In this document: piece by piece, positions 16,401 to 59,384 of the stretch
How positions within the stretch are numbered: the first letter of the stretch is position 1
How the letters are laid out: every line of letters starts with the position of its first letter
NCBI GenBank assembly: GCA_000002445.1
Contig: CM000208.1
Location: 224,001-288,000 of the forward strand
Length of the DNA stretch: 64,000 bases
Direction of reading: 5' to 3'
Origin: Trypanosoma brucei
Lineage: Eukaryota
Translations under genes and position numbers: made by a program
The notes under the pieces: generated by a model
The model's database searches: none
What the model was told of the DNA's origin: nothing
What the model saw: the letters and a program-made list of their open reading frames with translations, nothing else

Positions 16401-19400
16401 TTGTTGCACAATGACTGACCCTGTTGCAATTGTCATGCCTGATGTTATGGAGGATATGCAACGCCGTCTAACAAAGGAACTTATCAATTGTGGTACGATG
16501 ACAGATGGCACCGTCTCCACTAACTGCGCTACTATGACAGATCTTCGTTCACACTCAAATTGTTGCACAATGACTGACCCTGTTGCAATTGTTATGCCTG
16601 ATGTTATGGAGGATATGCAACGCCGTCTAACAAAGGAACTTATCAATTGTGGCACAATGACAGATCTTCGTTCACACTCAAATTGTTGCACAATGACTGA
16701 CCCTGTTGCAATTGTTATGCCTGATGTTATGGAGGATATGCAACGCCGTCTAACAAAGGAACTTATCAATTGTGGTACGATGACAGATGGCACCGTCTCC
16801 ACTAACTGCGCTACGATGACGGATATCCGTTCACACTCAAATTGTTGCACAATGACTGACCCTGTTGCAATTGTCATGCCTGATGTTATGGAGGATATGC
16901 AACGCCGTCTAACAAAGGAACTTATCAATTGTGGTACGATGACAGATGGCACCGTCTCCACTAACTGCGCTACTATGACAGAGGTTTGCCGTCAATCTAA
17001 TTCGCTTGATCGGCGTGTGTCTTGTGTATCGGGTACCGCTGAAAATGTGTCGTTGAGTGGGGAAACGTTTTGTAGGAATACATCTGTGAATACCCGTGAG
17101 TGTTCATATATTGCACGAAACACCATATTTGCTTCGAGTGTTGTTTCTTCATTTGTCCCCGTAATTGGGGAAGGACAGTTTGAGTGGTGGTGTTTGGACG
17201 ATGTGTATGCTCATGCTCTTTTGTTTTCTTACTGCAATCCACGCGATGTGGGTATCAATATTGGCTTGTTCGATGACTGTGATGATAAGGTGCTTTTGCA
17301 ATCTCTTGGAGTTGTTCATAGAACACTTGGCTCCATTCGTGCTGATTATGATGGCAGCGTCGTCTCGGTTATTCGTAGGTTTTTGGTTCAGCAACGCGGT
17401 GCCCTTGCAGGAGACGGCGCTCTTGAAGGTTGTGTGCCGTGCGAGGCTCTATTCGAGGTTCTTATATCTGCCAAAAATGCACTCTTGGTGGAGCCAATGG
17501 TCAGCGACTCCTCTACTGTGAAGGGGGAAGATAGGGTTTGTCACGGTGATGGAGAAGGTGCACTTGACAGCTGCGTATATGCTCACTTGCAAGTGGCGAT
17601 GACCGCCGTCTTCAGCATTGCACGTGAGCGCGGTGGATATTTGTCGGATATTTTCGCATCTGTGAAGGTTCAGAAAGCACTCGAAGCAATGCGTCAGTTC
17701 TTCACTTCCAGCAATTTATTTTCGAGTGGAAGTAGCAGCGTTTCTAGTACCTCCGAGGCCAACGGAGATAGTAGCAGCTTCCTCGAAGACATGCTGAGGG
17801 AAACAGAGGTCCCGCGTTTTGTACTAGGAGGTGCATTGCAACGGGCAGCCGCGCTGCTCAAGGATGATGTGGTGACCAAATTGCAGAGGCGGAGATTGTG
17901 TGGCGGACTCTCGTTGGAGGAGGCCCTTCTTGCGTGTTATTTGGCTGAAGAAAGAATCACCGCCCTCACTGAAATCGAAAATTTGAGAGAAGAAATGGTA
18001 CAGCCTGTTACACGCGAAGCGCTGGATTTAATTGACGGTGCGGTGAGGGCTTTTCTCAAGAGTGAAGAGTCCGAGGATTTCTCCGCTGAAGCCACAAACC
18101 ACATGAAAAGCAGCTCCTTCACTACCGCACTGGCATTTCTCTTCACGTACGTCGCTGCTCAAACAGCGACTGAAACCGTCGGGCTTCCTCAAGATAGCAC
18201 AGAACATGTTAGAGATGCGCTAAATGTAGTTGCGCAGACACTACTAAGGCGTTCAGTGTCACAAACTTCAAGATTTGATGTAGCACAGAGTAATACAGCG
18301 ATAGACCCAGAAAGCATGCAACAATCGTTGAGGATTATAATGGATTATGCGGAAAGTCAAGGTTACTACCCAGTCACATGCGATACGTCAGAAGCAGGCA
18401 GCCGGTCCAATCATCACTGCCAGTACTCCCAGCAAACCCGTAGAAAGGACACGCCCGACATCGACGTCACGAAAAGGGAGGCACTTATGGAAAAAATGGA
18501 TTCGCCTCGTACCACTCCAAGAAGTTCACCGCACCCTCGGTTATCCTCGCCACAAGAGCAACGACCTCAAACGAGCGTGGTTGTAGTATCGCAACCAAAT
18601 GTAACAAGCCACCACATCAACAACCTCGTTCACAGAGGAAGGATGACTAACCCTGTTGCAATTGTTATGCCTGATGTCATGGAGGATATGCAACGCCGTC
18701 TAACAAAGGAACTTATCAATTGTGGTACGATGACAGATGGCACCATCTCCACTAACCGTGCTACTATGACAGATCTTCGTTCACACTCAAATTGTTGCAC
18801 AATGACTGACCCTGTTGCGATTGTTATGCCTGATGTCATGGAGGATATGCAACGCCGTCTAACAAAGGAACTTATCAATTGTGGAACAATGACGGATATC
18901 CGTTCACACTCAAATTGTTGCACAATGACTGACCCTGTTGCAATTGTCATGCCTGATGTTATGGAGGATATGCAACGCCGTCTAACAAAGGAACTTATCA
19001 ATTGTGGTACGATGACAGATGGCACCATCTCCACTAACCGTGCTACTATGACAGATCTTCGTTCACACTCAAATTGTTGCACAATGACTGACCCTGTTGC
19101 AATTGTTATGCCTGATGTTATGGAGGATATGCAACGCCGTCTAACAAAGGAACTTATCAATTGTGGAACAATGACGGATATCCGTTCACACTCAAATTGT
19201 TGCACAATGACTGACCCTGTTGCAATTGTTATGCCTGATGTCATGGAGGATATGCAACGCCGTCTAACAAAGGAACTTATCAATTGTGGAACAATGACGG
19301 ATATCCGTTCACACTCAAATTGTTGCACAATGACTGACCCTGTTGCAATTGTCATGCCTGATGTTATGGAGGATATGCAACGCCGTCTAACAAAGGAACT

Positions 19401-42932: not shown

Positions 42933-43400
42933 TGTAAACACAGCAGTTAGTTATTATACTAGATGTTTTATTGCAAAATTCACCCTCCCTTCTCTCCCCA
43001 CGATCCGTACATACACTTTCGTCTTTACTTCTTTCCCCTCCATTTGATGTTGCTCCTCTATCTTTGTGAGAGCGGTGGGATGAGGTTGCTTACGTTGTAA
43101 TGCAGTTTTTCTCAACCCCATGTCTGTATGACAGCAGTGCAACGAAGATATGTAAGAGGTATTTTAGAGGACAGAAACACAAACAGCAGCAGCAACGGAG
43201 GGGCTCTAGTGACCACTTGGATGCCTTTCTTCTTTTTTTCTATGTGTGGTGGTCTACCCACCGAAGGGTAGAAGGGAATGTGTATTCCCCTCTCCTCTCT
43301 CTTTTGCCATTGTCCTTATACACATTGTTGTCCCGTGTATTCTCCCCGCATTTCTTTCATCATACATGTAACATGCCATGTCGCGAGCAAGGGTTGGGGT

Positions 43401-45221
43401 ATGGCCGCCGTGGAGCCATACAGACGCTTTGTGTCGATAGAGCTTCCCTTTTGCCTTCCTGTAACGGTGGAAACCAACACCGACGGTACCCATTCCTCAT
43501 GTGCCACGGCCACGGCGGATCGCCACACGGTAGAGGCATTTGTTCCCCCGTCATTCCTTCGACCTTGTATCGACGACATCATACCGACGGCACGGGAGAA
43601 GGCGGAACGTCAGGAAGGAGGTAACGACACCGCGGGAAAGGGTGAACCGAAGGAAATGTTGGGTATTGCAACAACGACGGAATATTGCACGGGGGAAATA
43701 TTCTCAGGGTGGCGGTCGCTGGATTTTGACGCGGATCTGGAGAGTCGTTTGGAGGGAACTGCCGACGGAAACCGTAGCAAGCTGACGACTACGGCAAATG
43801 AAGAAGGGGAGGCAGAAAGAGAACGAATAAGGCGCGAGTCCTTTCCCTCCATTACCCCCCAGCTCTTGCTTCAGGGATTCTTTCGTAATGATCTCCTGGT
43901 GGAGGTGAAACGCACGCGACGGGTTAAACGATTGCGTAATGTGGAGACGGGACGTGTGGTAAAAGAAACTTACGTTGATGGTGGCACTGATCACAAGCAA
44001 ACGGGGGTAACTGTATTAGGTGTTGTGTCACGCGAAGTAGACATTGTTAAACCGGCGGATTTCTGTTTTTCCCCTTTCACGAGCGAAAATATTGAATCAT
44101 TTCCAGAACTGTGCAGTGGGAACATTTTTCCACCAGGTCACTTTATAGGCGAGAAGAGTCCGTTCGAGGTCGCTTTAGTGTATGATTCACACTCGGGGAA
44201 GAGGGACATGGACCGCCTGGATAACACTGCAACATCATTTAACTGCGATGAGGCACCACTGTGGGAGTTTGAGGGCGTTCCCACGCTGACGATGGCAGCA
44301 GGCGACCCAAACATTCCACCGCCACCGAGTCAAGCGCAGATGGATATCCTCCGCCGCCTGAACGAAGGTTTTGATGAGCAAGGCTGCATAGAGGTGCGAG
44401 CCGTGAAGGCGCTCTTGGAAGAGCGTCCGGTATGGGTGACGAAGGACCTCATAGACGCCATTTTCGAAACGGGTGTATGCCCTCGCACACACATAAATAA
44501 AAAGGCTGTGGCGTGCTTGACGTATATCATTAAAAATGGGCCGTTTAATAGGATGCGCATCCGTATGGGGTTCAACCCATATGCCAACCCCAGCTCAGCA
44601 TGCCTGCAAAGAATCGCTGTGAAGATCTGCCGTCGCTCTGAGTTAGGTACATGCCTGCGTGACATTAGTCGCGTTCCCTACATCAATGAGGTGCTGCAAG
44701 AAATACTTGACAGTAAATCCCACAAGCGAGGCTCAGAGGAGGATAGCGGTGCTTTCAAACGGCCAAGTTCGCTGCCATACCGCCCACGGGGAACACTTTT
44801 CGAGAGGCTCGCAAGGGCTATTGGGCTAGGACAACTTTATGTCGCCCTTCAGTTAATTGATGTGAGTGATGACGCCTTTCTACAAGAACTACTTTCAACC
44901 GTCTCCGCAGATGCAGAAATTCCCCTTGAAGACCGTACGTGGCGATGTGGTTGGATAGGTAGTGGGTGTTACCAGCGAGCTATCAATCACATAATTAGTA
45001 CCTTTACAACATTTATTCGAGAAGAGGTAGAACCAGTGCTGCAGAGGAGACGAAGCGGCCAAGAAAACGACCAAGTTGGGGAAAGTGCAGGTGAGCGGTC
45101 TCCGTATGCCTCCTCCACCTCCAGTGTGTCACCAGAGAGTTATGGTGATGATGATAATGAGGACTCACTCGAGAGTGTTAGTCCTGTAGACGATTTGTCC
45201 CAGCATCCAGATGACGGATGA
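43401..45221 (+). CDS. Hypothetical protein (~606 aa) with an acidic C-terminus
   Basis: The track ORF starts at the ATG at 43278, but that lies inside a C/T-rich tract typical of a 5' flank. I prefer the ATG at 43401 ('MAAVEPYRRF'). No confident domain assignment. Confidence 0.5.
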   Translation: MAAVEPYRRFVSIELPFCLPVTVETNTDGTHSSCATATADRHTVEAFVPPSFLRPCIDDIIPTAREKAERQEGGNDTAGKGEPKEMLGIATTTEYCTGEIFSGWRSLDFDADLESRLEGTADGNRSKLTTTANEEGEAERERIRRESFPSITPQLLLQGFFRNDLLVEVKRTRRVKRLRNVETGRVVKETYVDGGTDHKQTGVTVLGVVSREVDIVKPADFCFSPFTSENIESFPELCSGNIFPPGHFIGEKSPFEVALVYDSHSGKRDMDRLDNTATSFNCDEAPLWEFEGVPTLTMAAGDPNIPPPPSQAQMDILRRLNEGFDEQGCIEVRAVKALLEERPVWVTKDLIDAIFETGVCPRTHINKKAVACLTYIIKNGPFNRMRIRMGFNPYANPSSACLQRIAVKICRRSELGTCLRDISRVPYINEVLQEILDSKSHKRGSEEDSGAFKRPSSLPYRPRGTLFERLARAIGLGQLYVALQLIDVSDDAFLQELLSTVSADAEIPLEDRTWRCGWIGSGCYQRAINHIISTFTTFIREEVEPVLQRRRSGQENDQVGESAGERSPYASSTSSVSPESYGDDDNEDSLESVSPVDDLSQHPDDG

Positions 45222-45969
45222 CAATGTCAACTTATGGCATCCTCCACCTTGGTCCCCGGAGGAAAATAACTGTTTAGTTATTTTGTTTAGCTGCATTGTA
45301 CGATTGGCACGGTGTCGCCATTGGTTGGCAAAGTTGATCGGTATCGCCGCATCGTGCACTCAGCGTGCCTACCGTGTGCGGCTAAGGGGTTCTCCTCTGT
45401 GACGGTTGGGGTGGAGAGCGACCGACTTCATTACTGTTATCCATTTTGTCTGCGCAGGCTTCATTCGATGCACCCATGGAAACAGTACGGAGGGGTTAGC
45501 GAAGAGAGCAAACGCAAGATTACAGAATCTTGCCAACCCTCTCCCCAACTTGCCCTCGTGCCCACATGTGGCTGTCAGCAATAGTAGTTGGCACATTTAC
45601 CTGCATTGTTGGAGGGAAAGGAAGAGGAGGCTGTCGATATCCCGCCCTTCCCGTTTGTTTTCCCATATCTCTTGTGAACCGGCACATTGGGTCTCAAACT
45701 GGAATGTAATTTTTTCAGCTGTTCCGCAATGTTGCTGTTGTGACGATCAGTTTGCCTCACGTGCCGTCGCCCCTCATCTTCCCCCCTCCAGTTTCCGTTA
45801 ACATCCTGTTATTTTCGTGCGCGTGAGAGCACGCAAACATACCTGAAGCGAGTGCAATACAAAACGTCTACCAGCCGCTGTTTGTCTTCCCATTTCACAT
45901 TTCATACCTACTAAAACACGTATAATCACGTCTTCACTTTATGAAGTATAGAGTCGCAACGTGCCAAGC

Positions 45970-47124
45970 ATGGCAGCAGTGATGAAATTAGAAAAGTTCT
46001 TCGTTGCAACGCTTATCGTTGCCGTCACGAGGTGCTTCGCAGAGGAAGTGGACACCGTTGCTCCAGGTAAGGCACCACCACAGGACGTAGTAAATACCTT
46101 GTGTGGGGCGAAGCATTTATTAGAAGCAGTAAATAAAAAGGCGGGGACTCTTGCGAGCGAAGTAGAAAAGCATGTCACTGATGCGAAGGCTTCTCTAGAC
46201 GGAACTGTCAAAGCGTCAAAGAGCACGCAGACCTTGTACGAAAAACTGCAGAAGGATGTAATGGATGCGGGCCTTACCGCTGTTGTTGTAGAACGGATGA
46301 AGGGAATTGCCGACGCCGCTGTCGAGGTGGCGGCGAGTGCCGAGGAAGCTTATGAAAAAGTGATACGAACGAATGAAAGTGTTGGGACAGCCGCAGCGGA
46401 GATAGAAACGAGTTCGAACCACTCCGCGAACCTTATCGACAAAATACTAATGGCCACCGCGGGGGTGGAAGATAAGGAAACAGAAGAAGACTTTTGCAGT
46501 GGTGTTGAAAATAAATATGGTGATGGCCTCAAGAATGCGAGTCGGCCGCATTGTCGACTATTTGACAACTGTAAGTTGGACGATATTAATGGCAAGGCAT
46601 GGCAGCCCACGCACATGGAGCTGGTAATCACATACCATGGGATATGTTATCGTCTTGACGCGGTAGAACTGTCTATGGGAATTGCAAAGGACGCGGCTAC
46701 GAAGGCATCGCAGATGAAGACGCGTGCTGAAGAGGGAATGGCGTCAGCTTATCAAGAGTCGATTGTCGTGGCGAGGGAAATTGCCGGGGAGGCGGAGAGA
46801 AAAAGACTACTAGCAGAAAAGGAGCTGGCGGAAACAAGGGAGAAAGCGGCTGCAGATGCCAAAGCTCGGAAAGAAGCGGAGGAAGAAATGAGACGGAGGG
46901 CCGAAAGGGAAAGAGCGGAAAAAGAGGAAGCTGTCGCTAGGGCGGAGCGAATGGAAAAAAAGGGGAAAACAGTAGCCGAAGTTGTGGTGAAGGCTGAACA
47001 TGATCAAAAGGCAAAAGACGGTGCAAGTGACATCAGCAGCCGGAGAATCGGATCCCTATGGAGTCCATTGCGCGACGTTTGGTTAATACTTCCTGCCGCC
47101 TCGCTGTGTTTATGGACTCAATGA
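45970..47124 (+). CDS. Putative secreted/GPI-anchored alpha-helical surface glycoprotein (~384 aa)
   Basis: The track start is a GTG at 45961; ATGs are at 45970 and 45982. The N-terminal signal peptide is 'MAAVMKLEKFFVATLIVAVTRCFA|EE'. The mature part is Ala/Glu/Lys-rich and helical, with ~6 Cys and NxS/T sequons (NES, NHS, NAS). A charged coiled segment precedes the hydrophobic C-terminus 'GSLWSPLRDVWLILPAASLCLWTQ', which is compatible with a GPI-anchor signal. Confidence 0.55.
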   Translation: MAAVMKLEKFFVATLIVAVTRCFAEEVDTVAPGKAPPQDVVNTLCGAKHLLEAVNKKAGTLASEVEKHVTDAKASLDGTVKASKSTQTLYEKLQKDVMDAGLTAVVVERMKGIADAAVEVAASAEEAYEKVIRTNESVGTAAAEIETSSNHSANLIDKILMATAGVEDKETEEDFCSGVENKYGDGLKNASRPHCRLFDNCKLDDINGKAWQPTHMELVITYHGICYRLDAVELSMGIAKDAATKASQMKTRAEEGMASAYQESIVVAREIAGEAERKRLLAEKELAETREKAAADAKARKEAEEEMRRRAERERAEKEEAVARAERMEKKGKTVAEVVVKAEHDQKAKDGASDISSRRIGSLWSPLRDVWLILPAASLCLWTQ

Positions 47125-48848: not shown

Positions 48849-51800
48849 GTACAGCTGTTGTTTGCCTGCTTGTTTATTTTGTTGTTGTTGTTTTCTTTTT
48901 TCATTTTCCACCTTCAACATTACCAACTCCAATCCTCCACCCGTGTCGTTGCCGCAACCCCTTCAGCATTCAAAATAAAAAAAAAGAAACATATATAAGC
49001 GTGCGTGTGTGTCTGAGTAATTGGATATTGTATTTTTGACATCCGTTCTATTCAAAAAAGGAACCTGACAAAACAAGCGCATACCGTTTTCCTGCATAAT
49101 TTTTTTTTCTATTTATGTACTCATACATGCGCTTACTAACACTAAGCGAGATGAAAGATATCATATCATGTGATGCGGTGCAAGTTTTGGCATTTTTTTT
49201 TTAATTTTTTACTTGCACTTCAATAACAGGACGATAAACGGAAGTGAGGTACGTCAAGACAAGCCAAGTGTGTCGAAGAAATTTATCAGCAGAAGTCGTT
49301 TCGGCATGCATTTACGCATATTTTTATGTTTATGCATATAATATAAAAGCATATTCATATACTCATTGGTTTATTATGAGCGTGGTGTAATGGTGAATGT
49401 CATTCAAACATTTACACTATACACTTCTTTTACGTTTCATTGGTGCACTAACATTAAAAGTGGGAGTGCCCAGATGAAAGATATTTGGCTGAATATTTAT
49501 ACCGCCACGTAGCGCATAAATAAACAGACATATATTTTTATAAATACAAATTTATCGACGCAATGCAACCGGAGCACCACGGTGGCCCCTACGAGTTATA
49601 TGCCCACTTCTCCTCAAAGAAAAAATATTTTATCTTTTTTTTCATTTTATTTTCCTTTTTACACCTGTGCTGGGAAACTAAACGTATGTCCCGTAGTTTT
49701 TTTTTTATGTACGTGTAGGGGAGGACGGTGGGGAAATGGTCGACGTTGGACGCTTCGAATGGGAGCTCAACCATAACACTATTTTTAGCGTGTGCTTTTT
49801 TTTCTTTTTTAGTTCCTTCTACTGTTCGCGGTGCAAAACAAAAGAACAAATCGCGTACCGTCATATCGCTCGTTTTTTTATTATTATTTACTATTTCCCC
49901 CCCCCCCTCCCTTTGTGGCGTTTCGTTGTCCCCAATTGCTTTTTCTTTCCTTTCCTTCATGTTTGTCCATTTACTGACTGTCAGGATCGAAGAACAATTG
50001 AATAATGGTAATAACAAAGGGCAACTGCACACTTCGCCGTCTAATATGAGGAACGGGATTTTTGAATTGTGATGCCTTCAAGTTCCCTCAAGTCCCAAAA
50101 AATATATATATAGTGTTTCTTTTTGTCCCCTTTACTTCAGCGGTCATGCAAAATCAGCTCCTTCATTTGTTACGGTGCTGAAATTTACTTGAAGTTGTCG
50201 TATTTTAGGGAACCCATGCATGAACACTAACAACAATATTAGTGAAACAATTGCTTAACATATGTGTCTCTGCTGTGATTTCCTTCTTGTGAATTACCTA
50301 ACGGTGTTCAAAAAGTCATTTCGTTGATGCAATTTGTTTCCCCTCCCTTGTTTTGTGGTGACGTACTTTTGACACCGCTGTTGTTTTGCTGGGTCTGATG
50401 GAAGGTTCGGGGACGCAGAAACGGAAAAAGCGAAGGGGAGACATACACTTCTTTTATAATAATAATAATGAGGCTGACTTCCCTATCCTTTTGGCCTCCA
50501 TTAAATTCCTTTTCTTTCCGCCTTGAGCTGCTAGAGCTTTTCCCCAAACTGTATAAACTGCAGAGGGCCACTTAGAAGCCGTGCCGTAGCGAGAGGTTCC
50601 GAATTGACAAAAAGAAGAGCGCGTCAGTCCTCCCTCACAGGTTAACCGCTTTCTAAATAGTTGGAAATTACACAAATATCAACACAGTCCCGCTCACTTA
50701 TTCGCAAGCCGACTTTCGCGTCACAACATTGCGGCCCTCATAAGAAAGCCCTCGCTGTCATCCATTGGAAACCCGTCTCGGTTGACTTCAATAATGTATG
50801 AAACAGGAAGAGTAGCCACCGGGGGAAAGAGGCAGAGAGAGGAACGCCGACGCGTTCCGCTATTCTGGGTGTCAGTTCCATCATGCGTTATCATGGTCTC
50901 GCTTCGGTGCGACTTCTTGAACATTCCAGTAGGGGGCTGTGACAGCGACTTGGCTTTACGGGATTGTTGTTCTGCAGCGCTTCTGGGTTCATTTATTCCT
51001 TCAGCTTTCGCACTTGGGGCCATTCGAGGAAATCGGCGAAGGGTTTCTGGCACCTCAGTCTCATTTAAGTGTGGTTTTCTCCCCCCCCCCCCCAATTTCC
51101 TTGCCGAGTGCCCATCGCAGGTGCCCTGTCAACCCAGCATTCCCGAGAAGGTACTTGGGAAACACCGAATAAGTGCGGCTCCCCGCCCCTCTTTTCTTTC
51201 GTTGCTTCGGTGTGGCCCCAGTGTTTTCTGTCGCCCAAAACCACATTCACCATGTCTGCCCACGTTACTGCGAAAGCAGGGCCCTTAAGAGGCAGCCCTC
51301 AATGCATAGGATGCCGTTCAACTCTTTTCCCAACCTCTCCATTGATGCGATGACGCGTGGTGCGGTGCCTTGTACGAATCCCTGTCACCTCGGCGGCGAT
51401 CCCGCGCTCCCCGACGGCAAGTTTCTTCGCCAAAAAAGCGCCGTTCTCCCAGGGAGGAAAATACCCAAACATTCTTTCACGAGCGGATGTACCCTAAACC
51501 GATCCCCACTTACAGGCGAAAAGCCCGTTGTTTACCATTCCCCCCTTTGTTCTCTCCCTCTCTTTGCCCCATTTACTCCACGCACTCCCCACACGTTTCA
51601 AAAACTTCGCGATCCCCGTGCACGACGTCCAATTTCTCTTTCCCTCCTCATTTCCTCTAACCCTCACAATCTTCAACCTCACCAGCTCCACCATATCCTT
51701 AAACCCCCTCGCCTTCTCTGTTGCGTCTTTGGCTTTTGCTTGAACGAAGGCATACACCAATTTCAATCTCCCTGATATATTACAAAGCCCCCACAGGGCC

Positions 51801-54258
51801 CACTTATCTTGAGTTCACCATTATCCGCAGACGTAAATCTACGAAAGGCAAACAGGACGCAACCAAAGTAATGACTTCTTTTGCGGGCATTCTATGTGTA
51901 GTTTCGGAGGTGAAGGGGAAAGCACACCGAAGTGAAAACTTAGCACCGCAGAAGCACTCCCCGACTAGGCTTAAATACGTTAACATGAGAATATAAGATA
52001 ACATAAGTGAAGCAACGAAAAGAACATAAAAGACTAATATACCAGAAAACACCGCCAACCCCAGCGTAGAGCCTCATCCCGAAAAAAACGAGAGTAAAGA
52101 TCGTTATTTCTGATATCGGGGTAAAGATGGCAACTCGCACACGGAGGATCAGCTTAAAGTACATCTTCTAATTGCGCACCGCTGAAAAGACAAATAATTA
52201 CTTGCGTTAAGTGTCAACTAGATCCCCTCGACCCACAGAGGAAATATCCACCGAAACCAAAGACTACATTTCACTGTGAACAACGAAACACGGGCGGTGC
52301 CTCGGATGGCAAAAAGGTTGTCCCTTTTGAGGATGGCTCATTAAAACATGGTGGGCTTTTGGCGCCCTCAAGGGAGACATCCATAACAATTAGGGGAAGC
52401 TGACTACCAACATTCTACATTTATCAAAGCCTACAAACGACCCCCTCCAACATGGGTGCCGGCAGCTCGTCTGCGTCTATTCGTGGTGGAGCGTCCGTTG
52501 TTGAGGAATCGAAAACAGAAGGAACTCCAGAAAGCATGGTAACTCCGCTTGGGCTTTCGGATGAGGAGCAGCCCAAGGTCACATCAACCTACTTCCCCAC
52601 CCTCAAATATAAAACGGCTCTAATGGAGTCATGGAAAAGCCGGAACCGTTGCGCAGAAGAAGGATGTTAAGTTGATAACTGGTGAATGTATGGAACAGGT
52701 ATTTTCAGTTGCCAACAGAAGAGCCCTAATACGATAAAGATCAGTTAAAGGAGAGTTCCCCCCGTCTTATGTGATCTGCTTTAAACACTCTGAGATAACA
52801 ATATGGAAAGCTTTGAGGAACTCTGGAAGCAGTTGCAGTTGGATCCCTTGCGATGCAACACTTGGGAATGACAGGGAGATTTGTACGTTGAAAGCCTTAG
52901 AGGCTATCGTATTCGTGGAGGGTGGTCGTTTGACCGACATTTGGGAGGCGGAGCGCGACAGAGTACCGTGCCACACGTGAGAAAGTTGTTGAAGAGAGGA
53001 GAATATCTCAATGATACCATTGCACATTTTATTTGCCAAATTGCGGCTCAAGCAGTTACTAGGAGGAAGGGGTGCGGAGCCGCGGCGCCCGGAAGAATCA
53101 TGAGGCGCATAAACATCAAGGGGGTGGACCTCATTGTACTAATGAAGAAGGTGTCGAATGAAACAGTTGTGCGGGAATGAGGATATGGGGCTTCAAAACC
53201 ATTCATCATCAGGGGGGGGGAATGTTGGAGGCTGCTAAAGTTGGTATTCGTGCCGTATCTGTTAACCACTTGGAATCTGGTTGTTAGTGGTTACCGCCTT
53301 CCAAAGAGGCAGCCGATGCATACAAGGGCGGGCACATATGCACAGCCCTCTCGCAAAGATACACTCAACACATTCACTCACACATACTTAAACGGACCCG
53401 CAGAATGTCAAGTGCTTTACTCTTTTTGAGCAACCGACTCCGAAAACTTGCCCCTTCGGATAAAAAAAGTGAGTGTTTGTGATGAATAAATACGGAAACA
53501 CTTCCTATCATATGTGGGACACTGAGGTACACGAAACATACGGTGACGGAAAAGGGGGATTCAAAACCCTCAATCATGACACGACTTTACTAAATCCTTC
53601 TATTTCTATCTGTTTCAAGCACTTGGTCATAACTGGAACACTCAGTTCCTCCTTCTGTTGCAGCAATAAAAGAATAGACTTTTGTATACTCCTCTCAGTC
53701 AATCCCTTGTCTCTTTCAATATGCATCAAAACTGTCTCATGAAGGAGTTCCATAACCTCGTCCCGCAATTTGTCAGCGCGTTGAATAAACACGCTTGCAA
53801 TTATATCTTGTAGTTCTCGCAGTTCCGGAAGCCACGGCGTGGTGGAGTGGGCACAACCACAAATAACTAAAAAACTAAGACCCCCTCTAGTGAGATTCAA
53901 CAAAGACAAAAGGTAAAACACGCAAAAAGTCAGTAGTCTACACGGAAAAAAGGAATATTTCAAAACATCCACCAACAAATTACCGCCCCCTCCCTCCCCC
54001 CCCAAAAAAAAGGGGGATCGCAAAAAGAAACTACATTCAAGGACACCAAAAGCACTCGCCGTTGCAAAACATTACTATAGTCACCAGCATGCGCCAGCTG
54101 GGATCCACTACTTTTCCGATTGAAAAAAAAATACTACGAGATCAAAAATAGAAAGCATACTAATCACTGAAGGGAACGACCCTGTCTTATACCACAGGTA
54201 CAGAAGGAAATATATACTCGTCTTCAATGCAATACACATAAATTCGAACAGACTCCGG
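48849..54258. other. Convergent strand-switch region (probable RNA pol II termination zone) between the plus- and minus-strand units. About 5.4 kb with no convincing CDS.
   Basis: Coding strand polarity flips from + (genes to 48848) to - (CBP1 stop at 54259). Only short, compositionally odd ORFs lie in between. There are AT-rich blocks (49050-49560) and homopolymer runs: C12 at 51083-51094, C11 at ~49896, G9 at ~53212, C-rich at 53984-54003. No tRNA cloverleaf was found by eye. Confidence 0.6.
52452..52670 (+). CDS. Speculative 72-aa ORF with an N-myristoylation consensus (MGAGSS...)
   Basis: ATG in a 'ccaacATGG' context. The translation is 'MGAGSSSASIRGGASVVEESKTEGTPESMVTPLGLSDEEQPKVTSTYFPTLKYKTALMESWKSRNRCAEEGC' (Gly2, Ser6). 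It is an isolated short ORF inside the strand-switch region, so it could be chance. Confidence 0.2.
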   Translation: MGAGSSSASIRGGASVVEESKTEGTPESMVTPLGLSDEEQPKVTSTYFPTLKYKTALMESWKSRNRCAEEGC

Positions 54259-55653
54259 TTACGAGAGTGGTTCGTTCCTCATGAATTTCTCAATTATAGT
54301 GGATGCCGCAGCAGGTTGATCCATCGGCACCATGTGACCCGCACCGTACACCTGCACAAAACTGAAGTGCATTGACGATGTGTTTGATGATACGCTACGT
54401 ACAAGACCCGCAGCACTACCATCAATAGATGAGAATGGGGTACCAGGGGCCTTCACAAACTCTTCACTTCCAGACCACTGAAGTGCAAGTGTCCACTCCT
54501 TATTTCCAATCCAGTTGCAGATAAAGTCCATATCACCGGCATAAATCATTACTCGAACTCCATCTTCGAGGAGTCCACTAATTGTGTAGTTAAAGTTCTT
54601 AAACCAGTCAACGGCAAACATCAGGTTCACCTCCATGTTACAAGCTTGCCAAGTCATTGGATCTACACCCAGAGACCTCTGAACATCCTCACGGTTCATA
54701 AAGTTGTCAACTCCCGTTGTGTTGTAACATAATGGCCCATCACATGTTTTGCGGATATCATAAACGTTCAGGCCTGTAGCTGAAAACAGAGCTACCATCG
54801 GACCACAAGTCACACGGGAAAGCTTGCACGACGAGTCCGCGGATGATGAATTATCAGCGTCACAAGCAGAAATAGTACTTTGACAAGCGGGCACCATCGC
54901 CGACATCATCACATGAACAAAGGAAGATACACACGGACTTCCAAGAACTTCCTTGCACCAGTCCCATGCAAGTCTGGGATATGACGCATATTGTGTATAC
55001 GGATCTGTTAAACCGTTTCCTACAGCCAATCCTGCAAGAGGAATGTATATGCCTTCACCCTTTTTATTGCCTTGGTTAATGCGGTAAGCTGTAGCCGGAG
55101 CAAAGTGGCCACCGTAGCTTTCCCCAACAACAAAGAAGTCGTTTTCACGCAGGTCCTCGTGCTCACCAAAGAAGGCCTGTAGAAAGTTGTACATGTCCTC
55201 CGACACCTCCGCTTCATTCTTATCATAATCCGCTTTATCCGCATACGAAAAGCCCACACCGGCAGGTTGATCGATATATATTACATACGCGTGGTTGTTC
55301 CACGAGTACGTATTGTTGTATATGTCACCAGTCGTTTCGTTCATGAGGCAAGGTCCATTCTCTGCAAGTAGCGCAAACATGGAACTACATCCAGGACCGC
55401 CTGTCATCCACAGGAGCACTGGGGCATTGGGATTGCCATCACGTGGTCCAAATGCCCAGTAGAAGTAATGTTTGTCACTCTGCTCTCCAGGAATATCAAA
55501 ATATCCGCTCCATTGATTAACGCCGGGGTCACAAGGCTCCCAACCAGAGCCCGTCGTGCGAAGCGTCGGACGGCGGATAGCCTGAAGGGCGCTTGCACTC
55601 TGCAATAAGAGTAGCAACGAGATAAGAAAAAGCGACGTGTGGCACAGCATCAT
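54259..55653 (-). CDS. CBP1: Serine carboxypeptidase (S10 family; CBP1 / serine carboxypeptidase III), array copy 1
   Basis: 464 aa with an ATG start. Signal peptide 'MMLCHTSLFLISLLLLLQSASA'. Catalytic serine motif 'VVGESYGGHFAPA'. 'WMTGGPGCSS' is conserved. Confidence 0.9.
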   Translation of the reverse strand: MMLCHTSLFLISLLLLLQSASALQAIRRPTLRTTGSGWEPCDPGVNQWSGYFDIPGEQSDKHYFYWAFGPRDGNPNAPVLLWMTGGPGCSSMFALLAENGPCLMNETTGDIYNNTYSWNNHAYVIYIDQPAGVGFSYADKADYDKNEAEVSEDMYNFLQAFFGEHEDLRENDFFVVGESYGGHFAPATAYRINQGNKKGEGIYIPLAGLAVGNGLTDPYTQYASYPRLAWDWCKEVLGSPCVSSFVHVMMSAMVPACQSTISACDADNSSSADSSCKLSRVTCGPMVALFSATGLNVYDIRKTCDGPLCYNTTGVDNFMNREDVQRSLGVDPMTWQACNMEVNLMFAVDWFKNFNYTISGLLEDGVRVMIYAGDMDFICNWIGNKEWTLALQWSGSEEFVKAPGTPFSSIDGSAAGLVRSVSSNTSSMHFSFVQVYGAGHMVPMDQPAAASTIIEKFMRNEPLS

Positions 55654-55974
55654 TTGTATGGGAACTTACTTCTACACAGATGATCGAAAGAAACAAATCA
55701 CAATCGGAGAGGAACGGGAGGCAACGGAATGCCGAATTTGGAAACCATGAGAGAGCACCCAACATAGTCACGAAGTTGCAGTATGCTGACCAACGTCCAA
55801 AAAAACATCCGTACAAAGCATGTCGGAAGCAAAGCATTGAGAAACAGCAAAATATTTAAAGTCTTTAAAAGAATAAAAAACACTCGCAGCCACATACCGT
55901 CATAAGTCAGGGCTTTTTAAAAGCAGTAAAGGAATCAATTCAATGCAATACACATAAATTCGAACAGACTCCGG

Positions 55975-57369
55975 TTACGAGAGTGGTTCGTTCCTCATGA
56001 ATTTCTCAATTATAGTGGATGCCGCAGCAGGTTGATCCATCGGCACCATGTGACCCGCACGGTACACCTGCACAAAACTGAAGTGCATTGACGATGTGTT
56101 TGATGATACACTACGTACAAGACCCGCAGCACTACCATCAATAGATGAGAATGGGGTATCAGGGGCCTTCACAAACTCTTCACTTCCAGACCACTGAAGT
56201 GCAAGTGTCCACTCCTTATTTCCAATCCAGTTGCAGATAAAGTCCATATCACCGGCATAAATCATTACTCGAACTCCATCTTCGAGGAGTCCACTAATTG
56301 TGTAGTTAAAGTTCTTAAACCAGTCAATGTCAAACATCAGGTTCACCTCCATGTTACAAGCTTGCCAAGTCATTGGATCTACACCCAGAGACCTCTGAAC
56401 ATCCTCACGGTTCATAAAGTTGTCAATTCCCGTTGTGTTGTAACATAATGGCCCATCACATGTTTTGCGGATATCATAAACGTTTATACCTGTAAGCAAA
56501 AAATCAGATACAAAGCCGCTACAAGCAGCACCAGCCATCTCACAGTAAGAATCCGCGGATGATGAATTATCAGCGTCACAAGCAGAAATATTACTCTGAC
56601 AAGCGGGCACCATACTGTTCATGGAGTCATATGTCTCGCGGGATATACATGAATAGCCGAGAACTTCCTTGCACCAGTCCCATGCAAGTCTGGGATATGA
56701 CGCATATTGTGTATACGGATCTGTTAAACCGTTTCCTACAGCCAATCCTGCAAGAGGAATGTATATGCCTTCACCCTTTTTATTGCCTTGGTTAATGCGG
56801 TAAGCTGTAGCCGGAGCAAAGTGGCCACCGTAGCTTTCCCCAACAACAAAGAAGTCGTTTTCACGCAGGTCCTCGTGCTCACCAAAGAAGGCCTGTAGAA
56901 AGTTGTACATGTCCTCCGATACCTCCGCTTCATTCTTATCATAATCCGCTTTATCCGCATACGAAAAGCCCACACCGGCAGGTTGATCGATATATATTAC
57001 ATACGCGTGGTTGTTCCACGAGTACGTATTGTTGTATATGTCACCAGTCGTTTCGTTCATAAGGCAAGGTCCATTCTCTGCAAGTAGCGCAAACATGGAA
57101 CTACATCCAGGACCACCTGTCATCCACAGGAGCACTGGGGCATTGGGATTGCCATCACGTGGTCCAAATGCCCAGTAGAAGTAATGTTTGTCACTCTGCT
57201 CTCCAGGAATATCAAAATATCCGCTCCATTGATTAACGCCGGGGTCACAAGGCTCCCAACCAGAGCCCGTCGTGCGAAGCGTCGGACGGCGGATAGCCTG
57301 AAGGGCGCTTGCACTCTGCAATAAGAGTAGCAACGAGATAAGAAAAAGCGACGTGTGGCACAGCATCAT
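55975..57369 (-). CDS. CBP1: Serine carboxypeptidase (S10; CBP1), array copy 2
   Basis: 464 aa. The N-terminal ~235 aa and C-terminal ~100 aa are identical to copy 1; the central segment is divergent. The 'GESYGG' motif is present. Confidence 0.9.
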   Translation of the reverse strand: MMLCHTSLFLISLLLLLQSASALQAIRRPTLRTTGSGWEPCDPGVNQWSGYFDIPGEQSDKHYFYWAFGPRDGNPNAPVLLWMTGGPGCSSMFALLAENGPCLMNETTGDIYNNTYSWNNHAYVIYIDQPAGVGFSYADKADYDKNEAEVSEDMYNFLQAFFGEHEDLRENDFFVVGESYGGHFAPATAYRINQGNKKGEGIYIPLAGLAVGNGLTDPYTQYASYPRLAWDWCKEVLGYSCISRETYDSMNSMVPACQSNISACDADNSSSADSYCEMAGAACSGFVSDFLLTGINVYDIRKTCDGPLCYNTTGIDNFMNREDVQRSLGVDPMTWQACNMEVNLMFDIDWFKNFNYTISGLLEDGVRVMIYAGDMDFICNWIGNKEWTLALQWSGSEEFVKAPDTPFSSIDGSAAGLVRSVSSNTSSMHFSFVQVYRAGHMVPMDQPAAASTIIEKFMRNEPLS

Positions 57370-57983
57370 TTGTATGGGAACTTACTTCTACACAGATGAT
57401 CGAAAGAAACAAATCACAATCGGAGAGGAACGGGAGGCAACGGAATGCCGAATTTGGAAACCATGAGAGAGCACCCAACATAGTCACGAAGTTGCAGTAT
57501 GCTGACCAAACAAGGAATTATCTATTATTTGAGGAGGAGGAGAAACATTAAACGCCAGCGAGCTACGTTAATGCGGCCATTGAAATTGAGAAACTCATCA
57601 TTTCTGGCAGCAGCAGAAGTGAGGTACCAGAAAGTAGAACATTCCCCCTCTATTGTGCAGTGGCATATGCATTCAATTGTAACACAGGCATTGGACCCGC
57701 AAATATGCCACTTCATAGAAGTGCATAGCAAGTCTATACGGCAGTAAAGACACAATGTAAAACATAAAGTCCAGAACCGGTAAGGGCATCCAAGAGACAC
57801 AAGGTCCACAAAAACATCCGTACAAAGCATGTCGGAAGCAAATCATTGAGAAACAGCAAAATATTTAAAGTCTTTAAAAGAATAAAAAACACTCGCAGCC
57901 ACATACCGTCATAAGTCAGGGCTTTTTAAAAGCAGTAAAGGAATCAATTCAATGCAATACACATAAATTCGAACGGACTCCGG

Positions 57984-59384
57984 TTACGAGAGTGGTTCGT
58001 TCCTCATGAATTTCTCAATTATAGTGGATGCCGCAGCAGGTTGATCCATCGGCACCATGTGACCCGCACGGTACACCTGCACAAAACTGAAGTGCATTGA
58101 CGATGTGTTTGATGATACACTACGTACAAGACCCGCAGCACTACCATCAATAGATGAGAATGGGGTATCAGGGGCCTTCACAAACTCTTCACTTCCAGAC
58201 CACTGAAGTGCAAGTGTCCACTCCTTATTTCCAATCCAGTTGCAGATAAAGTCCATATCACCGGCATAAATCATTACTCGAACTCCATCTTCGAGGAGTC
58301 CACTAATTGTGTAGTTAAAGTTCTTAGACCAGTCAATGTTGAACATTTTGCTAGCATCAAAAACGCAAGATTTCCAAACAGTAGGGCGGACACCAAGTGA
58401 CTTCTGAACATTCTCACGGTTCATAAAAGCGGGTATGGCATCAAATTTGTAGCAAAGTGTTGCGTTGCATTTTCTTCGGATATCATAAGTACTTATTTTT
58501 GTCAAAGTGAAAAGATTAGTCACAGGATCGCATGTCACACGAGACAACTTACACAAATACTGCGATGATGAAGCGCCAGCGTTGCACGCGTTGATCACTT
58601 TCTGGCAAGCGGGCACCATACTGTTCATGGAGTCATATGTCTCGCGGGATACACACGGACTTCCAAGAACTTCCTTGCACCAGTCCCATGCAAGTCTGGG
58701 ATATGACGCATATTGTGTATACGGATCTGTTAAACCGTTTCCTACAGCCAATCCTGCAAGAGGAATGTATATGCCTTCACCCTTTTTATTGCCTTGGTTA
58801 ATGCGGTAAGCTGTAGCCGGAGCAAAGTGGCCACCGTAGCTTTCCCCAACAACAAAGAAGTCGTTTTCACGCAGGTCCTCGTGCTCACCAAAGAAGGCCT
58901 GTAGAAAGTTGTACATGTCCTCCGATACCTCCGCTTCATTCTTATCATAATCCGCTTTATCCGCATACGAAAAGCCCACACCGGCAGGTTGATCGATATA
59001 TATTACATACGCGTGGTTGTTCCACGAGTACGTATTGTTGTATATGTCACCAGTCGTTTCGTTCATGAGGCAAGGTCCATTCTCTGCAAGTAGCGCAAAC
59101 ATGGAACTACATCCAGGACCACCTGTCATCCACAGGAGCACTGGGGCATTGGGATTGCCATCACGTGGTCCAAATGCCCAGTAGAAGTAATGTTTGTCAC
59201 TCTGCTCTCCAGGAATATCAAAATATCCGCTCCATTGATTAACGCCGGGGTCACAAGGCTCCCAACCAGAGCCCGTCGTGCGAAGCGCTAGAGATAAACT
59301 ACGATAGACAGTATTTGCTAAAACTACGACCAGGATGCAAGCAGCCAGTAACGATAGCATTACCGGATACGAAATGAGCCGCAT
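57984..59384 (-). CDS. CBP1: Serine carboxypeptidase (S10; CBP1), array copy 3, with a divergent signal peptide and central region
   Basis: 466 aa with an ATG start. The N-terminus 'MRLISYPVMLSLLAACILVVVLA' differs from copies 1 and 2. From 'RTTGSGWEPCDPG' onward it is identical to them up to the central variable block. Confidence 0.9.
   Translation of the reverse strand: MRLISYPVMLSLLAACILVVVLANTVYRSLSLALRTTGSGWEPCDPGVNQWSGYFDIPGEQSDKHYFYWAFGPRDGNPNAPVLLWMTGGPGCSSMFALLAENGPCLMNETTGDIYNNTYSWNNHAYVIYIDQPAGVGFSYADKADYDKNEAEVSEDMYNFLQAFFGEHEDLRENDFFVVGESYGGHFAPATAYRINQGNKKGEGIYIPLAGLAVGNGLTDPYTQYASYPRLAWDWCKEVLGSPCVSRETYDSMNSMVPACQKVINACNAGASSSQYLCKLSRVTCDPVTNLFTLTKISTYDIRRKCNATLCYKFDAIPAFMNRENVQKSLGVRPTVWKSCVFDASKMFNIDWSKNFNYTISGLLEDGVRVMIYAGDMDFICNWIGNKEWTLALQWSGSEEFVKAPDTPFSSIDGSAAGLVRSVSSNTSSMHFSFVQVYRAGHMVPMDQPAAASTIIEKFMRNEPLS

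What the first reader, a model, noticed from the sequence alone, without database searches (positions are those of the whole stretch)
45970..47124. Lone candidate GPI-anchored, alpha-helical surface glycoprotein embedded in a housekeeping gene cluster
The ORF has a clear cleavable signal peptide (MAAVMKLEKFFVATLIVAVTRCFA). Its mature domain is Ala/Glu/Lys-rich and predicted helical, with a handful of Cys and N-glycosylation sequons. It ends in a hydrophobic tail preceded by small residues ('DISSRRIGSLWSPLRDVWLILPAASLCLWTQ'), as expected for a GPI-attachment signal. The composition recalls trypanosome three-helix-bundle surface proteins (VSG-like fold; GARP/BARP, haptoglobin-haemoglobin-receptor-like). 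A single-copy member outside the usual surface-gene arrays is worth characterising.
Basis: partly seen in the sequence, partly recalled or inferred. Interest (0 to 1): 0.55.

Follow-up and report, generated by a model that had tools for sequence, protein, structure and literature searches.

The report
Known trypanosome flagellar-pocket surface protein ESP6
The ORF is a real Trypanosoma brucei gene, already catalogued as ESP6 (Tb927.10.990): a predicted lipid-anchored protein that published work detected on the bloodstream parasite's surface and placed in the flagellar pocket; here it is predicted to have the three-helix-bundle shape of known trypanosome host-ligand receptors, but its ligand and function are still unknown.

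Summary
**Observation:** correct. Window 45970-47124 (+) is a 384-aa ORF with an N-terminal signal peptide, three N-glycosylation sequons, five cysteines in the mature part and a short C-terminal hydrophobic tail.

**Identity:** it is not new. The protein is 100% identical to T. brucei TREU927 XP_822357.1 on chromosome 10, which is Tb927.10.990.
- Savage 2012 predicted a GPI anchor with two predictors.
- Gadelha 2015 found it 405-fold enriched in the bloodstream-form surface proteome, named it ESP6, tagged it with GFP and saw it only in the flagellar pocket.

**Extra detail:** helix 3 runs about 75 residues past the bundle as an E/K/R/A-rich solitary helix. This probably acts as a stalk of about 11 nm, and it is 18 residues shorter in T. 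congolense.

**Function:** most likely an orphan low-abundance receptor. This is inferred, not shown. The locus is already known and of modest interest.

The parts
45777..45791 (+). Polypyrimidine tract (TCTTCCCCCCTCC) followed directly by AG. This is a candidate trans-splice acceptor about 180 nt upstream of the start codon.
   Evidence: It is the longest pyrimidine run in the 748-nt intergenic region. Its use as an acceptor is inferred from the general rules of trypanosome trans-splicing and was not shown here.
45970..47124 (+). Coding sequence of ESP6 (Tb927.10.990), 384 aa plus the stop codon.
   Evidence: It is an exact match to XP_822357.1/EAN77529.1/Q38CE1.
45970..46041 (+). Signal peptide, residues 1-24 (MAAVMKLEKFFVATLIVAVTRCFA), with predicted cleavage before E25.
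   Evidence: Hydropathy and the -3/-1 rule. Published SignalP probability is 0.999. AF2 confidence here is low, as expected for a signal peptide.
46081..46269 (+). Bundle helix 1, residues 38-100. It contains conserved Cys45 near its N-terminal end, which is presumed to be membrane-distal.
   Evidence: AF2 with DSSP, pLDDT up to 97. Cys45 is conserved in T. congolense.
46279..46458 (+). Bundle helix 2, residues 104-163. It carries sequons N135 and N150.
46459..46605 (+). Loop between helices 2 and 3, residues 164-212. This is the putative membrane-distal head. It holds Cys176, Cys195 and Cys201, sequon N189 and the conserved RPHC motif.
   Evidence: pLDDT is low, 41-63. C176, C195 and R192-P193-H194 are invariant between T. 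brucei and T. congolense. The distal position is inferred from the topology of HpHbR and GARP.
46606..46794 (+). Helix 3, bundle part, residues 213-275. It contains conserved Cys226.
   Evidence: This part is 24% charged and 30% hydrophobic, like helices 1 and 2.
46795..47019 (+). Helix 3, solitary part, residues 276-350. It is an E/K/R/A-rich stalk, about 112 Å long if fully helical.
   Evidence: DSSP gives one continuous helix 213-350, while helices 1 and 2 have only 63 and 60 residues. The stretch is 59% charged, 76% E/K/R/A and 13% hydrophobic. It is 18 residues shorter in T. congolense, whose model also has a long helix 3, residues 204-324.
47020..47121 (+). C-terminal GPI-attachment signal region, residues 351-384. 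It has a small-residue cluster G351-A352-S353-D354 and G361-S362 (candidate ω sites), a polar spacer, and the hydrophobic tail V370-W382.
   Evidence: Published GPI predictions are. pLDDT is below 40. The exact ω site is not determined.

Best explanation

**Processing (inferred).** The precursor enters the ER through a 24-residue signal peptide. Its C-terminal 23-33 residues are probably exchanged for a GPI anchor. The mature glycoprotein of about 35-36 kDa travels to the flagellar pocket and surface of bloodstream forms.

**Architecture (predicted).**
- An elongated bundle of three helices, about 9 nm long.
- A loose, cysteine-stapled loop (the 'head') between helices 2 and 3, at the end far from the membrane.
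- Helix 3 continues about 75 residues beyond the bundle as a highly charged solitary helix. This would hold the bundle roughly 11 nm above the lipid anchor, level with or above the VSG coat.

**Function (inferred).** Its fold and location match the haptoglobin-haemoglobin receptor, the factor H receptor and ISG65. It therefore most likely acts as a low-abundance receptor that binds a host (or tsetse) macromolecule along the side or distal end of the bundle, for uptake or immune modulation.

**Status of each step.** Shown in published work: identity, expression in bloodstream forms, surface-label enrichment and the pocket localisation of a tagged copy. Predicted: the signal peptide, GPI anchoring, the fold and the stalk. 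Inferred only: receptor function and ligand.
For: **Identity.** The protein is 100% identical to XP_822357.1 from TREU927 chromosome 10. The T. b. gambiense, T. b. equiperdum and T. equiperdum copies differ at 1-5 of 384 residues, so it is invariant. The ESP6 name is linked to Tb927.10.990.

**Published experiments.**
- 5 peptides and 405-fold enrichment in the fluorescein-labelled surface fraction.
- The endogenous sfGFP fusion was exclusively at the flagellar pocket.
- hyperLOPIT placed it in secretory/endocytic clusters.

**GPI and signal-peptide predictions.**, plus the sequence features. The computed mass of residues 25-351, 35.5 kDa, matches the 35 kDa listed for mature ESP6.

**Fold.**
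- AF2: pLDDT 88-97 over most of the three helices.
- Foldseek: E 2.8e-5 to 4e-3 for the same set.
- Four cysteines (45, 176, 195, 226) are conserved between the species.

**Stalk.** Helix 3 has 138 residues against 63 and 60 for helices 1 and 2.

**Paradigm.** Bloodstream receptors of this fold carry C-terminal extensions that raise them within the VSG coat.
Against: - No ligand, phenotype or binding data exist for ESP6 in any source I could search.
- Several members of the same fold (GARP, MISP) have no known ligand.
- GPI anchoring has never been shown biochemically, and no ω site is clearly optimal.
- The AF2 alignments contained effectively two distinct sequences. AF2 may simply reproduce trypanosome bundles it saw in training. 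The head loop has low confidence.
- The charged helix shows no more i/i+3 and i/i+4 salt-bridge pairing than its composition gives (shuffle p about 0.07). pLDDT falls to about 60 over residues 331-350.
- RT-PCR in 2012 did not detect the transcript in bloodstream forms, although proteomics later did.
- Banerjee 2026 found that three GPI-anchored receptors once thought pocket-restricted are on the whole cell surface. 'Pocket only' for a weak GFP signal may therefore be incomplete.
- A 2026 screen of 37 putative surface proteins against complement components found new binding partners only for two other proteins, and only one of those was confirmed. Whether ESP6 was in that panel could not be determined.
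Confidence: 0.5

Rival explanations
1. ESP6 has the three-helix-bundle fold but is not a receptor. It would be a passive surface or pocket component (spacer, coat filler or glycan carrier), like GARP, BARP or MISP, which have no known binding partner.
For: GARP and MISP are among the top structural matches. The review read states that GARP has no known binding partner. The title of the MISP paper listed says the family is dispensable for development in the tsetse. Only about 30% identity is shared with the sole orthologue, and no clearly conserved surface patch stands out: distal halves are 33% identical and proximal halves 25%.
Against: GARP, BARP and MISP are abundant, multi-copy, insect-stage coat proteins. 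ESP6 is single-copy, of low abundance, found in bloodstream forms and concentrated in the endocytic pocket. That profile matches HpHbR-type receptors.
Confidence: 0.3
2. ESP6 is not membrane-anchored at steady state. The C-terminal tail would be a weak or unused GPI signal, and the protein would be secretory or endosomal cargo, or a secreted protein passing through the flagellar-pocket lumen.
For: There is no biochemical proof of a GPI anchor. No candidate ω site has the ideal small-x-small pattern at a typical distance: G351-A352-S353 would need a 33-residue signal, and G361 has Leu at ω+2. The hydrophobic tail is short and contains Pro375. hyperLOPIT assigns the protein to 'secretory/endocytic' clusters, and a sequence-based predictor listed 'Endoplasmic_reticulum'.
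Against: Four independent GPI predictors agree. The 405-fold enrichment came from surface labelling of intact cells. The fusion protein, presumably tagged at the N-terminus as the paper states for predicted GPI proteins, showed a pocket-membrane pattern rather than ER or lysosome. The T. congolense orthologue keeps a C-terminal hydrophobic tail despite 17% identity there.
Confidence: 0.08
3. This is a structural sub-rival and is compatible with either function. Residues 276-350 would not be a solitary helix but would pair with a second ESP6 chain as a parallel coiled coil. That would make a two-GPI homodimer, or the stretch could be largely flexible in solution.
For: AF2 was run on a monomer and cannot show dimerisation. 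One heptad register puts mostly Ala, Leu, Val and Met at a/d positions, 16 of 26. Salt-bridge spacing is not significantly above the composition-matched expectation. T. brucei ESP6 has an unpaired fifth cysteine, C201, which is not conserved. HDX data for ISG75 show that helices predicted in membrane-proximal regions can be dynamic.
Against: Only 13% of residues in 276-350 are hydrophobic, and the core 288-322 has 5-10%. That is far below typical coiled-coil seams. Many of the 'a/d' residues are Ala.
Confidence: 0.2

Closest known systems
ESP6 / Tb927.10.990 (Gadelha et al. 2015, PMC4587319; Savage et al. 2012, PMC3378594)
   Same: It is the same protein: 100% identical sequence, same chromosome-10 locus, predicted signal peptide and GPI anchor, and no transmembrane helix.
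   Different: Nothing differs. The fold assignment and the stalk description made here add to what those papers report.
Haptoglobin-haemoglobin receptor (TcHpHbR 4e40; TbHpHbR 4x0j, 5hu6)
   Different: No sequence similarity is detectable, and structural-alignment identity is 11-14%. The ESP6 extension is predicted to be a continuous charged helix, not a separate C-terminal domain. No kink is evident, and the ligand is unknown.
Factor H receptor (Tb927.5.4020, PDB 6xz6; Macleod et al. 2020, PMC7067766)
   Different: The PDB entry labels FHR a 'GARP domain-containing protein'. ESP6 matches no Pfam family at E ≤ 1 apart from one sub-threshold noise hit. FHR has a known ligand.
ISG65 (complement C3b receptor; 7pi6, 8ovb) and the ISG superfamily
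   Different: ISGs are type-I transmembrane proteins encoded by multigene families, and their spacer is intrinsically disordered. ESP6 is single-copy, predicted to be GPI-anchored, and its spacer is predicted helical.
GARP / BARP / MISP insect-stage coat proteins (2y44, 5vtl)
   Different: They are abundant, multi-copy and insect-stage, and have no long C-terminal helix. ESP6 was detected in bloodstream forms and is single-copy.
ER/K single α-helix (SAH) domains (for example in myosin VI/X and caldesmon; from my own knowledge)
   Same: Residues 276-350 are 59% charged and 76% E/K/R/A, carry many i/i+4 opposite-charge pairs and almost no hydrophobic seam, and are predicted as one uninterrupted helix.
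   Different: Known SAH domains are cytoplasmic. An extracellular SAH used as a stalk would be unusual. The salt-bridge pattern here does not exceed the composition-matched expectation (p about 0.07), and there are no biophysical data.

Membership tests
ESP6 / Tb927.10.990 orthogroup | Sequence identity to the annotated T. brucei protein, and the same locus. | tested here: met
   Exact-sequence look-up gives XP_822357.1/EAN77529.1 on a 4,054,025-bp contig, which is TREU927 chromosome 10. [quoted passage not shown] The molecular weight of 41,881 matches the 41,882 listed for Tb927.10.990.
Trypanosome three-helical-bundle surface proteins (HpHbR/GARP/FHR/MISP/ISG65 fold) | Elongated bundle of three long antiparallel α-helices. 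| tested here: met
Trypanosome three-helical-bundle surface proteins (HpHbR/GARP/FHR/MISP/ISG65 fold) | [quoted passage not shown] | tested here: inconclusive
   A 49-residue loop (164-212) between helices 2 and 3 lies at the correct end and holds conserved Cys176, Cys195 and RPHC. Its pLDDT is 41-63, and model coordinates could not be inspected.
Trypanosome three-helical-bundle surface proteins (HpHbR/GARP/FHR/MISP/ISG65 fold) | Secretory signal peptide plus a C-terminal membrane attachment (GPI signal or TM helix). | tested here: met
   Published predictor outputs are. These are predictions, not biochemistry.
Trypanosome three-helical-bundle surface proteins (HpHbR/GARP/FHR/MISP/ISG65 fold) | Detectable sequence homology to a member (Pfam GARP domain or PDB chains). 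| tested here: not met
   Pfam gave no family at E ≤ 1 except a noise hit. phmmer against PDB sequences gave only noise. A two-species profile against PDB sequences gave 0 hits at E ≤ 10. The relationship is at fold level only.
Trypanosome three-helical-bundle surface proteins (HpHbR/GARP/FHR/MISP/ISG65 fold) | Binding of a host ligand (applies to the receptor subset only). | not testable with these tools
   No binding data were found. Whether ESP6 was in the Cook 2026 screening panel is unknown.
GPI-anchored proteins | C-terminal signal made of a small ω residue, a polar spacer and a terminal hydrophobic stretch with no cytoplasmic tail. | tested here: met
   The hydrophobic stretch V370-W382 ends 2 residues before the C-terminus. 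A polar spacer and several small-residue candidates lie upstream: G351, A352, S353, D354 and G361. BigPI, FragAnchor and two later predictors are positive. The exact ω site is unresolved.
GPI-anchored proteins | Covalent GPI demonstrated (PI-PLC/GPI-PLC release, CRD epitope or metabolic labelling). | not testable with these tools
   No such experiment was found in the papers read.
VSG-like fold (VSG N-terminal domain, TfR/ESAG6-7, SRA) | VSG N-terminal-domain architecture or sequence domains. | tested here: not met
ER/K single α-helix (SAH) domain | Long helix rich in E, K and R with i/i+4 ion pairs and no hydrophobic seam. | tested here: inconclusive
   The composition and the predicted continuous helix fit. 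However, ion-pair spacing does not significantly exceed shuffled sequences (p about 0.07), and stability as a monomer cannot be computed here.

The most novel reading that the evidence does not exclude
ESP6 would be an orphan receptor shared by T. brucei and T. congolense for an unidentified host serum (or tsetse) macromolecule. Its ligand-binding three-helix bundle would be held above the VSG coat by an extracellular ER/K-type single α-helix. That would be a rigid-spacer answer to the 'receptor under a coat' problem, distinct from the disordered linkers of ISGs and the added C-terminal domain and kink of TbHpHbR. The 18 extra stalk residues in T. brucei would track its thicker coat.
Probability: 0.2. 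Interest if true: 0.6.

Novelty: already known. Interest (0 to 1): 0.3.

Why it matters
Invariant, surface-exposed proteins of bloodstream African trypanosomes are few. The ones understood so far (TfR, HpHbR, FHR, ISG65, and in 2026 the C3bBb receptor) each revealed a nutrient-uptake or complement-evasion mechanism, and they are drug-delivery or vaccine leads.

ESP6 is nearly invariant across T. brucei subspecies, sits at the endocytic pocket and is predicted to have the receptor fold, yet it has no assigned ligand. That makes it a reasonable but already listed candidate for de-orphanisation.

The predicted charged helical stalk, if real, would add a new variant to the ways receptors cope with the VSG coat.

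Tried and rejected
**Homologue searches**
- Word-indexed search with the full protein, with the bundle region only (residues 25-273) and with the T. congolense protein found nothing beyond the query clusters.
- An exhaustive phmmer search of 1.84 billion representatives found only the T. congolense protein TCIL3000_10_850 (E 4.5e-21). There are therefore no T. brucei paralogues, and no detectable T. vivax, T. cruzi or Leishmania relatives at E ≤ 0.001. This agrees with Savage 2012.

**Sequence-level links to known families**
- Pfam, phmmer against PDB sequences and a profile search against PDB sequences all gave nothing. Membership of the Pfam GARP family or the VSG families is rejected.

**Synteny and structure libraries**
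- Synteny of the T. congolense gene could not be checked because the protein is not in the contig index. No eukaryotic genome collection was available to examine the T. vivax and T. cruzi syntenic intervals.
- The AFDB50 fold library was unavailable, so structural neighbours among unsolved T. brucei proteins could not be ranked.
- AF2 coordinates are not exposed, so disulphide pairing and helix packing were not inspected directly.

**Ideas tested or set aside**
- Salt-bridge periodicity of the stalk was tested by shuffling. It did not exceed what the composition gives.
- I considered explaining pocket retention by GPI valence (one anchor means pocket). I dropped it as evidence because Banerjee 2026 found localisation independent of anchor number.
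- I considered a type-I transmembrane topology. I rejected it because the hydrophobic tail is 13-15 residues, is interrupted by Pro, and ends the protein.

**Literature**
- Searches for ESP6, Tb927.10.990 and Tb427.10.990 found no functional follow-up.
- Tb927.10.9900 (COQ8) is a false text match.
Full report

Yes. On the + strand an ORF runs from ATG at 45970 to TGA at 47122-47124 and encodes 384 aa. Its features are as follows:
- Residues 7-24 form the only strongly hydrophobic N-terminal stretch. Ala at -1 and Cys at -3 before Glu25 fit the proposed cleavage after MAAVMKLEKFFVATLIVAVTRCFA.
- There are three NxS/T sequons (N135, N150, N189).
- The mature part has five cysteines (45, 176, 195, 201, 226).
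- The extreme C-terminus has a 13-15-residue hydrophobic tail (V370-W382). It is interrupted by Pro375 and followed only by Thr-Gln. It is preceded by a polar spacer and clusters of small residues (G351-A352-S353-D354 and G361-S362).

That arrangement is what a GPI signal looks like. It is too short and too terminal for a transmembrane anchor with a cytoplasmic tail.

The gene is single-copy in the window. It sits in a + strand polycistron of housekeeping genes: thymidine kinase, a PIF1 helicase, a PRP4-like WD40 protein, an IQ/TPR protein and a TFIIIC Tau95-like protein lie upstream. It lies about 5-7 kb before a convergent strand-switch region. Beyond that region lie three tandem serine carboxypeptidase genes and a TCP-1 subunit on the - strand. 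A pyrimidine tract followed by AG at 45777-45791 is a plausible trans-splice acceptor. This last point is inferred.

**2. What is it?**

The translated sequence is an exact match to XP_822357.1/EAN77529.1/Q38CE1 of T. brucei brucei TREU927, on the 4.05-Mb chromosome 10. The T. b. gambiense, T. b. equiperdum and T. equiperdum copies differ at only 1-5 of 384 positions, so the protein is invariant. [quoted passage not shown] The literature links that name to Tb927.10.990.

- **Savage et al. 2012 (PMC3378594).** They picked Tb927.10.990 in a genome-wide screen as a high-probability GPI-anchored protein. It was positive in both BigPI and FragAnchor, with a signal peptide and predicted N-glycosylation. 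It was shared only with T. congolense, and transcript levels were low.
- **Gadelha et al. 2015 (PMC4587319).** They identified it with 5 peptides and 11 PSMs, 405-fold enriched in the fluorescein-labelled surface fraction of bloodstream forms. Predictor values were signal peptide 0.999, GPI specificity 0.998 and no TM helix, and it belonged to no multigene surface family. They named it ESP6 and tagged it at the endogenous locus with superfolder GFP. It was one of four proteins localising exclusively to the flagellar pocket.
- **Moloney et al. 2023 (PMC10361982).** They quantified it in hyperLOPIT spatial proteomics and allocated it to secretory/endocytic clusters.

I found no functional follow-up under any of its identifiers.

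**3. Relatives**

Word-indexed searches found nothing outside the T. brucei cluster. An exhaustive phmmer scan of 1.84 billion representative proteins found exactly one other protein. It is TCIL3000_10_850 of T. congolense IL3000: 351 aa, E 4.5e-21, 27-31% identity.

The two proteins align end to end, and Cys45, Cys176, Cys195, Cys226 and an RPHC motif are conserved. The family therefore has one gene per species in T. brucei and T. congolense, with no paralogues and no detectable homologue in other kinetoplastids. There is no Pfam domain. No PDB chain is similar in sequence, even when searched with a two-species profile at E ≤ 10.

**4. Fold**

AlphaFold2 on the five-sequence alignment gave mean pLDDT 73.7, with pLDDT 88-97 across most of three long helices:
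- H1, residues 38-100.
- H2, residues 104-163.
- H3, residues 213-350.
- A low-confidence loop, residues 164-212, between H2 and H3.

Fold searches of this model:
- **Foldseek against the PDB.** Eight of the top ten hits are trypanosome three-helix-bundle surface proteins, and ISG65 ranks 11th. They are factor H receptor 6xz6 (E 2.8e-5), T. congolense and T. brucei haptoglobin-haemoglobin receptors, MISP 5vtl and GARP 2y44.

Three caveats apply:
- The alignments hold only two truly different sequences.
- The two runs share them.
- AF2 was trained on several of the matched structures.

With three helices, the N- and C-termini lie at opposite ends of the bundle. As in HpHbR and GARP, the N-terminus, Cys45 and the Cys-containing H2-H3 loop would form the membrane-distal 'head', and H3 would run down towards the anchor. 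This topology is inferred.

**5. An added feature: the stalk**

H3 has 138 residues, while H1 and H2 have 63 and 60. About 75 residues (276-350) must therefore project beyond the bundle.

This stretch is what makes the protein look Ala/Glu/Lys-rich. It is 59% charged, 76% E/K/R/A and only 13% hydrophobic, against 24-29% charged and 25-30% hydrophobic in the bundle helices. Its length would be about 112 Å if fully helical. pLDDT is 89-95 up to about residue 320 and falls to about 60 by 350.

The composition resembles ER/K single α-helix domains (my own knowledge). However, the i/i+3 and i/i+4 ion-pair count does not significantly exceed composition-matched shuffles (p about 0.07). I therefore treat 'solitary rigid helix' as probable, not established. 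A dimeric coiled coil or a partly dynamic segment remain possible.

The T. congolense stalk is 18 residues shorter. Published work shows that bloodstream-form receptors of this fold need membrane-proximal extensions to work within the VSG coat. TbHpHbR gained a C-terminal domain relative to TcHpHbR, and ISGs use disordered linkers. The ESP6 stalk would be a third, helical variant of that solution. This is inferred.

**6. How it most likely works**

- **Shown in the literature:** the protein is made in bloodstream forms, is accessible to surface labelling, and a tagged copy concentrates at the flagellar pocket.
- **Predicted:** cleavage of the signal peptide, exchange of the C-terminal 23-33 residues for a GPI anchor (the ω site is unresolved), N-glycosylation, two conserved disulphides, the bundle and the stalk.
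- **Inferred:** ESP6 is a low-abundance receptor that binds a host (or vector) macromolecule on its bundle or head. This follows from the fact that every functionally understood bloodstream member of this fold (HpHbR, FHR, ISG65) is a host-ligand receptor. I put this at roughly 0.4-0.5.

The main rival (about 0.3) is a non-receptor surface component like GARP or MISP. A minor rival (about 0.08) is that the protein is not anchored and is luminal or secreted cargo.

Two recent papers temper the inferences:
- Banerjee et al. 2026 show that TfR, HpHbR and FHR are on the whole cell surface regardless of GPI number. 'Pocket-exclusive' for a weak GFP signal may be incomplete, and GPI-valence arguments do not apply.
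- Cook et al. 2026 screened 37 putative surface proteins against complement components. New binding partners were indicated only for Tb927.11.1470 and Tb927.10.3620, and the latter failed validation by SPR. Whether ESP6 was included cannot be read from the held text.

**7. Comparison and novelty**

ESP6 works like, and is predicted to be shaped like, the HpHbR/FHR/GARP/ISG65 three-helical-bundle group. It meets the architectural criteria: signal peptide, three-helix bundle and C-terminal anchor signal. The head is inconclusive. It fails the sequence-homology criterion, so it is a fold-level member only. It is not VSG-like.

The gene, its predicted anchor, its surface association and its localisation are all published, so the finding as stated is already known.
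- The demonstration that the family has exactly two detectable members.
- The description of the charged helical stalk and its length difference between species.

**8. Verdict**

The locus is already known. Interest is modest (0.3): it is a legitimate orphan receptor candidate, but not a surprise to a specialist.

Noticed in passing
window 54259-59384 (- strand): There are three tandem serine carboxypeptidase (Peptidase_S10) genes of 464-466 aa. The second and third are 93% and 82% identical to the first. The divergence is concentrated in the N-terminal signal region and around residues 240-350.
   Followed up: partly
window ~51776-54258: This is a convergent strand-switch region between the + strand polycistron that contains ESP6 and the - strand carboxypeptidase/TCP-1 unit. 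It contains no tRNA genes and no Rfam matches, although trypanosome convergent switch regions often hold tRNA or snRNA genes. The 'often' is from my own knowledge.
   Followed up: partly
window 13444-22113 (+): This is a 2889-aa kinesin with an N-terminal motor at residues 79-382. Its very long tail gives high-scoring Pfam 'hits' with zero accepted stretches (Ribosomal_L19e, CheY-binding, PEPCK_N). That suggests a repetitive or low-complexity tail.
   Followed up: no
window 10984-12357 (+): This thymidine kinase ORF has two TK-domain stretches in one polypeptide, that is, a tandem or pseudo-dimeric TK.
   Followed up: no
window 264-4772 and 5713-9858 (+): Two adjacent large ORFs both carry the FAZ1 conserved domain. 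The first also has N-terminal WD40 propellers. They may be a paralogous pair of flagellum-attachment-zone-type proteins.
   Followed up: no
window 43278-45221 (+): The gene immediately upstream of ESP6 encodes a protein with a TFIIIC Tau95 HTH domain (E 1.4e-21). TFIIIC subunits are poorly characterised in trypanosomatids (my own knowledge).
   Followed up: no
window 46570-46572 (Cys201) and the T. congolense orthologue P0005: T. brucei ESP6 has an odd number of mature cysteines. C201 is not conserved, whereas the T. congolense protein has several extra cysteines (C113, C133, C159, C170, C230). This suggests species-specific disulphides or a free thiol.
   Followed up: no
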